Below, piece by piece: positions 21,635 through 22,081 of a DNA stretch of 23,970 nt (within the stretch, counting starts at the first letter, position 1; every line of letters starts with the position of its first letter). A model generated the notes under the pieces. The model did no database searches, had not been told where the DNA came from, and worked only from the letters and a program-made list of their open reading frames with translations. The translations under genes were made by a program, and so were the position numbers. The stretch comes from a virus (lineage: Duplodnaviria > Heunggongvirae > Uroviricota > Caudoviricetes): the IMG/VR virus record IMGVR_UViG_2681813429_000002; one strand, written 5' to 3'.

Positions 21635-21721
21635 TCACCACCAACGGATTGCCCAGACCAGAACAGCAATGGCCACAATACGAATGGCAAATGCCATTGC
21701 CCGAATAAGTTCAGCACTCAT
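21635..21721 (-). CDS. Small hydrophobic ORF D (28 aa): [28 protein letters not shown]
   Basis: ATG at 21719-21721. Stop TGA overlaps the Rz start context (TGA-T-ATG). One predicted TM helix. Paralogous to ORF C. Not in the ORF track because of its length. Confidence 0.4.
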
Positions 21722-21732
21722 CTTTTTAAAGT

Positions 21733-21855
21733 TCACGATTTCAGCGCAATGACCAGTTTTGCCAGCCCATACAGCATCGGAGACACAGCAATACCAACAG
21801 CCACCCACTTAATAGCAAAAGCCAGCGCTCTGCTGATGTCATCAGTCACTGTCAC
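21733..21855 (-). CDS. Small hydrophobic ORF C (40 aa, GTG start): (M)TVTDDISRALAFAIKWVAVGIAVSPMLYGLAKLVIALKS
   Basis: GTG start overlaps the ORF B stop (GTGA). Shares about 10 of 19 core residues with ORF D. This is the C-terminal part of track ORF 21733..22005. Confidence 0.4.
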   Translation of the reverse strand: MTVTDDISRALAFAIKWVAVGIAVSPMLYGLAKLVIALKS

Positions 21856-21983
21856 CCCAGCAGCCCCGACGAAGACAACATCACCCAGGCGAGGGACAGA
21901 AAAAGAGCAACCAGCATTAGTGAAAATGAAATACCGACAATCACACACAGGACCTTTGCCGGCGTTATGAGTTTGTCTGACAT
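21852..21983 (-). CDS. Small hydrophobic ORF B (43 aa): MSDKLITPAKVLCVIVGISFSLMLVALFLSLAWVMLSSSGLLG
   Basis: ATG at 21981-21983 with SD AAGGGG 5 nt upstream, 2 nt after the ORF A stop. One predicted TM helix. Confidence 0.45.
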   Translation of the reverse strand: MSDKLITPAKVLCVIVGISFSLMLVALFLSLAWVMLSSSGLLG

Positions 21984-21985
21984 AG

Positions 21986-22081
21986 CTACCCCTTAATTGC
22001 CACAATTAACTGGGATACTACCCATAAAAAAGGGATGCTCCAGACCAGCAAAAATTTCCAGTTTGGTAATTGACTAATCAT
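21986..22081 (-). CDS. Small hydrophobic ORF A (31 aa): MISQLPNWKFLLVWSIPFLWVVSQLIVAIKG
   Basis: ATG at 22079-22081 with SD AGGGAG 9 nt upstream. An alternative TTG start after GGGAGG would give 44 aa. The track's 70-aa GTG-started version runs through the terminator hairpin and is not favoured. Confidence 0.4.
   Translation of the reverse strand: MISQLPNWKFLLVWSIPFLWVVSQLIVAIKG

What the first reader, a model, noticed from the sequence alone, without database searches (positions are those of the whole stretch)
21635..22081. Four tightly coupled small single-TM ORFs inserted between the SAR endolysin and Rz/Rz1
Canonical lambda and phage 21 lysis cassettes run S, R, Rz/Rz1 contiguously. Here a ~640-bp insert separates R from Rz and contains four back-to-back minus-strand ORFs of 31, 43, 40 and 28 codons, each with one hydrophobic helix-length segment. 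Their spacing is operon-like: ORF A stop to ORF B start is 2 nt with SD AAGGGG; ORF B stop overlaps the ORF C GTG start (GTGA); ORF C stop to ORF D start is 11 nt; ORF D stop is 1 nt before the Rz ATG. ORFs C and D are recognisably paralogous (RALAFAIKWVAVGIAV versus [16 protein letters not shown]). None is in the ORF track because of the length cutoff. Possible roles are lysis-timing modulators, antiholin-like factors, membrane-active toxins or superinfection-exclusion peptides. An alternative is a frameshift-degraded multi-TM gene, since each segment is in a different frame.
Basis: partly seen in the sequence, partly recalled or inferred. Interest (0 to 1): 0.8.

Follow-up and report, generated by a model that had tools for sequence, protein, structure and literature searches.

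The report
Small membrane-peptide genes in lysis cassette
Four tiny genes for membrane-spanning peptides really do sit between the cell-wall-cutting enzyme and the outer-membrane-breaking genes of this E. coli prophage; they are conserved and reshuffled among hundreds of related prophages, including Shiga-toxin phages, but nobody has shown what they do.

Summary
On the minus strand a 642-nt insert lies between the SAR lysozyme gene (22809-22276) and Rz/Rz1 (21633-21139). It carries a strong terminator hairpin and four chained small ORFs at exactly the reported coordinates.

They are real genes. In-frame dN/dS is 0.15-0.38, against about 0.8-5.6 in shifted frames. Stop positions are conserved, and 51 of 53 distinct nucleotide variants are intact. 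They match three PHROG families of unknown function: A in 6632, B in 4906, and C and D as paralogues in 1115/4493/3246. ORF A probably starts 13 codons earlier, at TTG 22120.

They are not fragments of a larger gene. No longer relative exists. The ORFs reshuffle as independent cassettes, in at least 12 arrangements, downstream of four unrelated endolysin types in Escherichia and Salmonella prophages. A B-type ORF lies before Rz in 276 phage genomes, mostly Stx phages, and is often unannotated.

All four peptides are already in databases as hypothetical proteins, and I found no paper on them. Function is inferred only. They are probably late-expressed, non-essential inner-membrane helices that tune lysis. 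P2 LysA occupies the same position but is unrelated. Interest is moderate; a deletion and lysis-curve experiment would decide.

The parts
22276..22809 (-). SAR-type lysozyme R (177 aa); upstream flank of the insert
   Evidence: ORF. RefSeq annotates it as rrrQ lysozyme. dN/dS 0.08.
22153..22185 (-). Intrinsic terminator hairpin (AAAACCCCG...CGGGGTTTT) that heads the small-ORF module
   Evidence: 15-pair stem followed by a T run, and folded as such. It is present ahead of the small ORFs behind three different endolysin types and in L105, with one covarying pair.
21986..22120 (-). The probable full form is 44 aa from TTG 22120, with SD GGGAGG at 22131-22126.
   Evidence: PHROG 6632: E 1.4e-13 over positions 1-43 of 45 for the 44-aa form, against 6e-5 for the 31-aa form. 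dN/dS 0.26 in frame, against 0.89-0.96 out of frame. 7 of 8 variants are intact. A 44-aa call exists in UniProt/NCBI.
21852..21983 (-). ORF B, 43 aa, strongly hydrophobic single-pass helix
   Evidence: PHROG 4906, E 4.5e-21. 103 clusters, mostly exactly 43 aa. dN/dS 0.38 against 0.82-1.64. 19 of 19 variants intact. AF2 gives one helix over residues 3-38, pLDDT 84.5. Full-length hits in 276 phage records.
21733..21855 (-). ORF C, 40 aa from GTG. It is an N-terminally shortened member of a family that is 48-60 aa elsewhere.
   Evidence: PHROG 1115, E 6.4e-25. Family found in Escherichia and Salmonella. dN/dS 0.15 against 0.95-5.6. 14 of 15 variants intact. The core forms one 36-residue helix in AF2.
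21635..21721 (-). ORF D, 28 aa, short paralogue of C
   Evidence: PHROG 4493, E 3.8e-6, and also 3246 and 1115. 37-aa and 61-aa forms exist elsewhere. dN/dS 0.19 against 0.96-3.3. 11 of 11 variants intact, including one in-frame 3-nt insertion.
21139..21633 (-). Rz i-spanin (164 aa); downstream flank. Its ATG lies 1 nt after the stop of D.
   Evidence: ORF. RefSeq calls it 'lysis protein'. Relatives carry Pfam Phage_lysis.
21228..21413 (-). Rz1 o-spanin embedded in Rz (lipobox VVSAC)
   Evidence: ORF translation. Relatives carry Pfam Rz1.

Best explanation
The insert is a modular accessory cassette of the prophage lysis operon. It consists of a terminator hairpin, then one translation-initiation region, then a chain of four translationally coupled genes that hands ribosomes on to Rz.

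The four products are small single-helix inner-membrane peptides from three phage families:
- A, in PHROG 6632.
- B, in PHROG 4906.
- C and D, paralogues in PHROGs 1115, 4493 and 3246.

They have no detectable promoter of their own and sit behind a terminator. They should therefore be made only when Q-modified RNA polymerase reads through the late operon, at the same time as holin, endolysin and spanin.

My best guess at the mechanism is that they build up in the inner membrane late in infection and act as non-essential modulators of lysis. They would do this by perturbing the bilayer or the proton-motive force, or by helix-helix contacts with holin or SAR helices. All holins and SAR endolysins respond to membrane energisation. 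A generic membrane-active peptide could therefore shift the lysis time whichever holin, endolysin or spanin type it travels with.

Shown here: the genes are real, under purifying selection, membrane-helix-like, lysis-cassette-associated, modular and widespread. Inferred: late-only expression, inner-membrane location, and the effect on lysis.
For: Real genes:
- In-frame dN/dS is A 0.26, B 0.38, C 0.15 and D 0.19, against 0.8-5.6 in shifted frames. For comparison Rz is 0.38 and R is 0.08.
- Stop positions are conserved.
- 51 of 53 distinct variants retrieved by nucleotide search are intact.
- All four match PHROG families.
- Different upstream contexts each supply an in-frame start for the same conserved body.

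Membrane helices:
- Hydropathy supports this.
- AF2 predicts single long helices.
- The conserved C/D motif is amphipathic, with a hydrophobic moment of 0.40-0.50, similar to TisB and melittin.

Link to the lysis cassette: the ORFs always lie inside lysis cassettes, co-oriented and tightly packed.
- Behind R21-type lysozyme (many loci).
- Behind a 161-aa Salmonella lysozyme.
- Behind GH108 endolysin.
- Behind M15 endolysin.
- Once directly upstream of a lambda-type holin.

Expression signals:
- There is a strong terminator at 22185-22153, and no minus-strand promoter-like site anywhere in 21000-23970.
- Q antiterminator genes lie upstream in related loci.

Non-essential:
- K-12 Qin has the same lysozyme type with R and Rz overlapping and no insert.
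- Copy number ranges from 0 to 5.

Positional precedent: P2 lysA, a membrane protein that affects lysis timing, lies between endolysin K and spanin lysB (PMC3091744).
Against: - There is no experimental or expression evidence of any kind. No paper mentions these peptides.
- They show no sequence relationship to any holin, antiholin, releasin or LysA.
- Their association with unrelated holins and endolysins argues against a specific phage partner.
- The R-Rz junction may simply be a permissive insertion site. Antirepressor genes sit there too, and bor sits just downstream of Rz.
- The direction of any effect, earlier or later lysis, cannot be predicted.
- The dN/dS sets are small and the pairs are not independent. 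They were partly selected by protein similarity, although nucleotide-based retrieval gave the same picture.
- The hydrophobicity sums are crude and ignore residue position.
Confidence: 0.45

Rival explanations
1. The peptides are late-operon cargo unrelated to lysis. They would be membrane peptides that act on a host or competitor target, for example superinfection exclusion, blocking a membrane defence effector, or inhibiting a host membrane enzyme. They would sit at the R-Rz junction only because that site tolerates insertions.
For: - The same junction also holds antirepressor genes, and bor lies just downstream of Rz.
- The ORFs vary in copy number, reshuffle, and have several paralogues, which is typical of accessory or arms-race genes.
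- They occur with four unrelated endolysin types.
Against: - No promoter was found that would allow expression in the lysogen, and a terminator lies upstream. Exclusion functions are usually expressed from the prophage.
- Every instance seen lies inside a lysis cassette rather than at other moron sites.
- They do not match any PHROG with an exclusion or defence label.
Confidence: 0.25
2. The peptides are themselves lethal membrane toxins or inhibitors of cell-wall synthesis, comparable to type I toxins or single-gene lysis proteins. They would add killing power to the cassette rather than tune it.
For: - Their size (28-44 aa) and single helix resemble TisB, Hok and DinQ-type toxins.
- The C/D motif is about as amphipathic as TisB.
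- A terminator shields them from read-through transcription.
Against: - No antisense RNA, own promoter or Rfam toxin-antitoxin family was detected.
- Four such genes in one coupled chain is not a type I toxin layout.
- Toxicity is untested.
Confidence: 0.1
3. The peptides have no function of their own. The ORFs persist only to carry ribosomes from a loading site behind the terminator to the Rz start by translational coupling, or they are chance ORFs.
For: - The junctions are very tight (2 nt, a 4-nt overlap, 11 nt, 1 nt) and end 1 nt before Rz.
- ORFs of this length are common by chance in this composition.
Against: - Purifying selection acts at the amino-acid level in all four.
- The same peptide bodies are kept in many unrelated contexts and orders, including one upstream of a holin rather than Rz.
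- Four hydrophobic ORFs occur in only 0.1% of shuffles.
Confidence: 0.05
4. The four segments are the frameshifted wreck of one multi-pass membrane gene, for example a LysA-like antiholin with four membrane helices.
For: - The four peptides together total 142 aa, the same size class as P2 LysA (141 aa, four TMDs; PMC3091744).
- The segments lie in three different frames.
Against: - No longer homologue exists among 5.8 billion clustered or 1.84 billion representative proteins. Long hits are upstream read-through calls.
- There is no similarity to LysA.
- Each ORF occurs independently, with its own start and stop, in many orders.
- Each shows purifying selection in its own frame.
Confidence: 0.02

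Closest known systems
Phage P2 LysA (separate-gene antiholin / lysis-timing protein)
   Same: It is a non-essential membrane protein encoded between the endolysin gene (K) and the spanin genes (lysB/lysC), and it affects the timing of lysis (PMC3091744). It is the best positional analogue.
   Different: LysA is one 141-aa protein with four predicted TMDs. Here there are four separate one-helix peptides. No sequence similarity was found (best pairwise E 0.03-0.3).
Dual-start antiholins (lambda S107, phage 21 S21-71) and T4 RI
   Same: They are small membrane-anchored products of lysis cassettes that modulate when the holin fires. This statement rests on established knowledge, not on a test here.
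   Different: S107 and S21-71 are N-terminally extended products of the holin gene itself. RI has a periplasmic sensing domain. The peptides here are separate genes downstream of the endolysin and have almost no extramembrane part.
Phage Mu gp25 releasin (DUF2730)
   Same: It is a membrane-tethered accessory protein of a SAR-endolysin lysis system, encoded near the spanin genes, and is needed to release the SAR endolysin (PMC9239132).
   Different: gp25 has a cytoplasmic domain and belongs to DUF2730. None of the peptides matches any Pfam family. They also occur with non-SAR endolysins (GH108, M15).
Type I toxin peptides (TisB, Hok, DinQ and similar)
   Same: They are similar in size (about 20-50 aa), in having one hydrophobic or amphipathic helix, and in plausibly depolarising the membrane (for amphipathicity).
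   Different: Type I toxins have their own promoter and an antisense RNA and stand alone. These are four coupled ORFs inside a late operon, with no such elements detected.
Lambdoid 'morons' (for example bor, lom, HK97 gp15)
   Same: They are extra genes inserted between conserved late genes, and they vary from phage to phage.
   Different: A moron carries its own promoter and a downstream terminator and is expressed from the prophage. Here no promoter was found, and the terminator lies upstream of the genes.

Membership tests
PHROG 4906 (unknown function) | Full-length profile match | tested here: met
   ORF B residues 1-43 match profile positions 7-49 of 49, E 4.5e-21.
PHROG 6632 (unknown function) | Full-length profile match | tested here: met
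   The 44-aa form of ORF A (TTG 22120) matches positions 1-43 of 45, E 1.4e-13. The 31-aa form matches only positions 14-43, E 6e-5.
PHROGs 1115 / 4493 / 3246 (unknown function) | Profile match of both C and D | tested here: met
   C: 1115 at 6.4e-25, 3246 at 2.4e-20, 4493 at 5e-17. D: 4493 at 3.8e-6, 3246 at 9.2e-5, 1115 at 0.053.
P2 LysA-type antiholin | Gene lies between the endolysin and spanin genes | tested here: met
   Window order is R, then A-B-C-D, then Rz/Rz1. P2 order is K, lysA, lysB.
P2 LysA-type antiholin | Sequence similarity to LysA | tested here: not met
   BLASTP of each peptide and of their concatenation against LysA gives a best E of 0.03, which is noise for hydrophobic sequences.
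P2 LysA-type antiholin | Multi-pass protein (four TMDs) | tested here: not met
   Each peptide has one helix.
P2 LysA-type antiholin | Loss changes lysis timing | not testable with these tools
   Needs a deletion mutant and lysis curves.
Holins (classes I-III, pinholins) | Match to a holin family profile | tested here: not met
   No Pfam hit. All PHROG hits are to 'unknown function' families.
Holins (classes I-III, pinholins) | Hydrophilic, highly charged C-terminal tail after the last TMD | tested here: not met
   The C-termini are ...SSSGLLG (B)...AIKG (A)...AIRWW (D) and ...ALKS (C), read from the sequence.
Holins (classes I-III, pinholins) | Lethal, timed membrane-hole formation | not testable with these tools
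   Needs expression experiments.
Mu releasin (DUF2730) | Match to DUF2730 | tested here: not met
   No Pfam family at E up to 1.
Type I toxin-antitoxin toxin | Small single-helix hydrophobic peptide | tested here: met
Type I toxin-antitoxin toxin | Own promoter and antisense or adjacent RNA antitoxin | tested here: inconclusive
   There is no minus-strand promoter-like site. One weak plus-strand site (21977-22006, 9 of 12 matches) is within chance expectation. No Rfam family matched. Simple scans cannot exclude weak promoters.
Moron (promoter-gene-terminator unit) | Own promoter upstream and terminator downstream | tested here: not met
   No promoter-like site was found, and the only strong terminator is upstream of the ORFs.
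Spanins (Rz, Rz1, u-spanin) | Lipobox, or a periplasmic domain long enough to span the periplasm | tested here: not met
   The peptides have no lipobox and almost no sequence outside the membrane helix.

The most novel reading that the evidence does not exclude
These peptide families would be a previously unrecognised class of lysis regulators: a mix-and-match toolkit of membrane-active helices. B would be a stable anchor. A, C and D would be weakly hydrophobic, amphipathic, SAR-like helices. Together they would set or sharpen the lysis clock independently of the holin type, by leaking proton-motive force or by competing with SAR domains. In Stx phages they would thereby influence when toxin and phage are released. 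A more radical variant is that one of them inhibits a host cell-wall precursor enzyme, as single-gene lysis proteins do.
Probability: 0.15. Interest if true: 0.7.

Novelty: new variant of a known kind. Interest (0 to 1): 0.45.

Why it matters
About a third of complete E. coli genomes (1842 of 5426) carry at least part of this array, with up to 12 copies per genome. A B-type ORF precedes Rz in 276 sequenced phages, mostly Shiga-toxin converting phages such as phi24B, where it is not annotated.

If these peptides tune lysis, they affect the timing and amount of phage and Stx release, and the textbook holin-endolysin-spanin scheme for lambdoid phages lacks a common accessory layer. If they do something else, they are still a very widespread set of late-expressed membrane peptides with no known role.

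The question is directly testable with a clean deletion in phages that plate on E. coli C or K-12, such as PhiR5_1 or PhiR12.

The work also gives annotation fixes. ORF A should be called, probably as 44 aa from a TTG start. The RefSeq CTG start for C is doubtful.

Tried and rejected
- The search for related loci with single peptides failed because the queries were shorter than 48 aa.
- With alignment A1, the viral-contig scan returned 80 near-identical loci. These were useful only for counting architectures.
- The GTDB species-representative scan returned one 328-nt contig labelled Xanthomonas pisi, which is probably contamination.
- Rfam at E up to 1 over 20500-23970 found nothing, so the hairpin downstream of R is not AgvB, AsxR or any other curated RNA.
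- Full-text searches for peptide strings and WP accession numbers found no paper.
- The supplements of the EHEC Sakai Ribo-seq small-gene paper hold none of the peptide strings.
- The Stx-phage lysis-cassette survey (PMC8136144) does not mention these ORFs.
- The phi24B 'ant' paper concerns a different ant gene and gave no expression data for this locus.
- P2 LysA homology is rejected.
- The 'u-spanin' label I first gave to the small lipoprotein downstream of the ORFs in GH108 and M15 cassettes is withdrawn. It has a lipobox but no C-terminal TMD, and it matches only PHROG 7528, of unknown function.
- Long database relatives (86-112 aa) turned out to be upstream read-through calls across the hairpin, not larger genes.
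- I did not run a fold search, because single helices give meaningless matches.

Full report
**1. What is in the sequence**

The window's right end carries a lambdoid lysis cassette on the minus strand:
- a class II (S21-like) holin, 23717-23502;
- a YdfR/DUF1327 gene, 23497-23153;
- a SAR-type lysozyme R, 22809-22276;
- Rz, 21633-21139, with Rz1 embedded.

The window is 100% identical to prophages of ST131-type E. coli.

Between the R stop and the Rz ATG lie 642 nt. In K-12 Qin, which has the same lysozyme type, rrrQ and rzpQ overlap and nothing lies between them.

- A: 22081-21986, 31 aa.
- B: 21983-21852, 43 aa.
- C: 21855-21733, GTG start, 40 aa.
- D: 21721-21635, 28 aa.

There are two small corrections. 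A and D share a reading frame, and C shares the frame of Rz. The ORFs are also not unknown to databases. RefSeq annotates B, C and D as hypothetical proteins (C as 51 aa from a CTG). Phage PhiR5_1 annotates A. All four exact peptides are in public collections under the names 'hypothetical', 'prophage' or 'membrane protein'. B, C and D are each on about 1000 contigs.

**2. Is it more than chance?**

ORFs of this size are common here. Four or more ORFs of at least 25 codons occur in 65% of dinucleotide shuffles of the 447 nt. Four hydrophobic ORFs occur in only 0.1%.

The decisive evidence is comparative. I collected distinct nucleotide variants from about 120 related loci and calculated Nei-Gojobori dN/dS:

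| ORF | dN/dS in frame | dN/dS in shifted frames |
|---|---|---|
| A | 0.26 | 0.89-0.96 |
| B | 0.38 | 0.82-1.64 |
| C | 0.15 | 0.95-5.6 |
| D | 0.19 | 0.96-3.3 |
| Rz (for comparison) | 0.38 | - |
| R (for comparison) | 0.08 | - |

The stop codon follows the aligned end in every A, C and D variant, and in 14 of 18 B variants. The other four B variants have one extra Gly.

When relatives are retrieved by nucleotide similarity instead, 51 of 53 distinct variants are intact. There is one frameshift in A, one frameshift in C, and one in-frame 3-nt insertion in D.

Caveats: the sets are small, the pairs are not independent, and recombination is rife.

**3. Families**

No peptide matches Pfam. All match PHROG families labelled 'unknown function':
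- B matches 4906, E 4.5e-21.
- C matches 1115, 3246 and 4493.
- D matches 4493, 3246 and 1115.
- A matches 6632.

C and D are true paralogues. Longer forms share the N-terminal motif MK-G-E--AP-T-D--RA-AFAI(K/R). Hybrids such as P0235 join a C-type head to a D-type ...AIRWW tail. In the window both are N-terminally short forms of a family that is 48-60 aa elsewhere.

ORF A is probably longer than reported. A TTG at 22120 lies 5 nt after GGGAGG and gives 44 aa. That form matches PHROG 6632 end to end, with E 1.4e-13 against 6e-5 for the 31-aa form. It is called as such in some genomes. The same leader and first codons head a different small membrane ORF in locus L092.

The B family is narrow. 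It has 103 clusters, nearly all exactly 43 aa, and all those named are E. coli or Shigella. Only 28 representatives turn up among 1.84 billion proteins, none longer than 105 aa. The C/D family has 301 clusters, in Escherichia and Salmonella.

**4. Not a broken larger gene**

No longer homologue exists. The 86-112 aa database entries are gene calls that run upstream through the hairpin. The exception is one isolated in-frame C-B fusion on a 979-nt contig.

The ORFs behave as independent cassettes. At least twelve arrangements were seen:
- R-A-B-C-D-Rz.
- R-A-B-Rz.
- R-C-B-Rz, as in O157:H7 and others.
- R-C-Rz.
- R-D-Rz.
- R-E-C-F-D-Rz.
- R-Ant-A-B-Rz.
- R-Ant-A-B-C-D-Rz, as in PhiR5_1.
- R-Ant-B-Rz, as in phi24B-type Stx phages.
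- Salmonella lysozyme-C-Rz.
- GH108 endolysin-F-C-B-lipoprotein.
- M15 endolysin-D-lipoprotein.
- Hairpin-A-B directly upstream of a lambda-type holin.

In L092 a duplicated 3' end of the lysozyme gene follows the C-type ORF. This looks like the footprint of insertion into a once-contiguous R-Rz junction.

**5. Anatomy of the module**

A strong intrinsic terminator, with a 15-pair stem and a T run, lies at 22185-22153 between R and ORF A. The same AAAACCCCG...CGGGGTTTT hairpin precedes the small ORFs behind R21-type, Salmonella and GH108 endolysins and in L105. It has one covarying stem position (U-G, A-U, G-C, U-A).

No minus-strand promoter-like site was found anywhere in 21000-23970.

From established knowledge of lambdoid late operons, Q-modified polymerase reads through such terminators. 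Q genes lie upstream in related loci. I therefore infer that the peptides are made only late, together with the lysis proteins.

Translation would start once, behind the hairpin. It would then pass by coupling from A to B to C to D and on to Rz.

**6. Physical character**

On a crude Hessa-type scale the scores are as follows:

| Segment | Score |
|---|---|
| B | -3.5 |
| Rz anchor | -3.4 |
| D | -0.9 to +1.2 |
| A | +1.4 |
| C | +3.7 |
| SAR domain of R | +3.1 to +5.4 |

So B is as hydrophobic as the Rz anchor. D and A are marginal. C is as weak as the SAR domain of R.

The conserved C/D motif is amphipathic, with a hydrophobic moment of 0.40-0.50, similar to TisB and melittin.

AlphaFold2 gives one continuous helix for B (residues 3-38, pLDDT 84.5). 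It gives one 36-residue helix for the conserved C core.

**7. Function**

Nothing is known. Searches of full text, of a Stx-phage lysis-cassette survey and of EHEC Ribo-seq supplements found no mention.

The best positional analogue is P2 lysA. It is a non-essential membrane protein between endolysin K and spanin lysB that affects lysis timing. It is unrelated in sequence and has four TMDs. Mu releasin (DUF2730) is also unrelated.

I favour non-essential lysis modulation through a generic membrane or proton-motive-force effect, with confidence about 0.45. This is the one mechanism that would work with any holin or endolysin type, which matches the promiscuous associations.

The rivals are:
- late-operon cargo with a non-lysis target (0.25);
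- intrinsically lethal peptides (0.1);
- mere coupling spacers (0.05);
- a degraded gene (0.02).

**8. Spread and verdict**

Part of the array occurs in 1842 of 5426 complete E. coli genomes, and the full array in 589. B-type ORFs occur full-length in 276 phage records, mostly Stx-converting phages, and are often unannotated. In phi24B one sits between d_ant and Rz. C, A and D are rarer among sequenced phages, at 14, 11 and 6 records.

They belong to already catalogued families of unknown function, and the proposed roles remain untested. This is a moderately interesting and easily testable lead, not a categorically new system.

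Noticed in passing
window 22153-22275 (minus strand): The roughly 95 nt between the R stop and the terminator hairpin are conserved along with the hairpin. This includes a GGCGGATAACAC..AAATCC stretch that is also present behind an unrelated Salmonella lysozyme (L106). 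The region could be a 3'UTR-derived small RNA ending at the terminator. No Rfam family matches it.
   Followed up: partly
window 23757-23785 (minus strand): A second terminator-like hairpin, with a 12-pair stem and a T run, lies between the end of the SASA (sialate esterase) gene and the holin start. A 2026 preprint places the PasA/PasC prophage sRNAs at exactly this position (esterase-PasA-holin-lysozyme; bioRxiv 10.64898/2026.05.13.724894). I did not compare the sequence with PasA or PasC.
   Followed up: partly
window 23706-23717 (minus strand): The holin begins MYQMEK. It has two Met codons spaced as in the dual-start motif of phage 21 S (MKSMDK, recalled from memory), but it lacks the Lys that gives the longer product its antiholin character. 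This cassette may therefore have no conventional antiholin.
   Followed up: no
window 22095-22145 (minus strand): In the leader after the terminator, a small predicted hairpin (GGCAGU...GCUGCC) partly encloses the GGGAGG Shine-Dalgarno of the TTG start. The TTG region is predicted to pair with the ATG-22081 region. The whole 131 nt folds with z = -3.8. This could be translational control of entry into the ORF chain.
   Followed up: no
L092 1610-1684: A duplicated 3' end of the lysozyme gene (NHNCYGQVIRRDQESALACWGIDQ*) follows the C-type ORF and overlaps the Rz start. This looks like a footprint of how the module entered a once-contiguous R-Rz junction.
   Followed up: partly
L089 1774-1956; L114-L119 about 2779-2961; L120 1591-1782: GH108 and M15 lysis cassettes lack a recognisable Rz/Rz1. 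Their small ORFs are followed by a 51-63 aa Cys-rich lipoprotein (lipobox LVGC) in PHROG 7528, of unknown function. It has no C-terminal TMD, so it is not a standard u-spanin.
   Followed up: partly
protein P0207 (96 aa, one 979-nt contig): This is a natural in-frame fusion of a C-type and a B-type peptide (…LVIALKS-GRGLN-MSDKLIM…). It is the only such case seen. It could be a sequencing error, or a hint that C and B act together.
   Followed up: no
L090 1314-1466; L092 about 1288-1451; L114 2307-2504; L112 2356-2499: Further small single-helix ORF families occupy the same slot. They are a 50-aa family (PHROG 12997, with a weak hit to a holin PHROG at E 0.036), a 55-aa ORF with no PHROG match, a 65-aa family, and a 47/64-aa C-like paralogue. 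The peptide repertoire is therefore larger than the four in this window.
   Followed up: partly
window 20927-21142 (minus strand): A 71-aa ORF starts by overlapping the Rz stop. It matches only positions 100-165 of a 291-position PHROG (2571, unknown function). It may be a short or truncated form.
   Followed up: partly
window 22915-23187 (plus strand): A 90-aa ORF lies on the opposite strand, between the YdfR-like gene and R, overlapping the 3' end of the YdfR-like gene. It is a full-length member of PHROG 2411 (unknown function) and is annotated in RefSeq. It is an antisense-oriented gene inside the late operon.
   Followed up: partly
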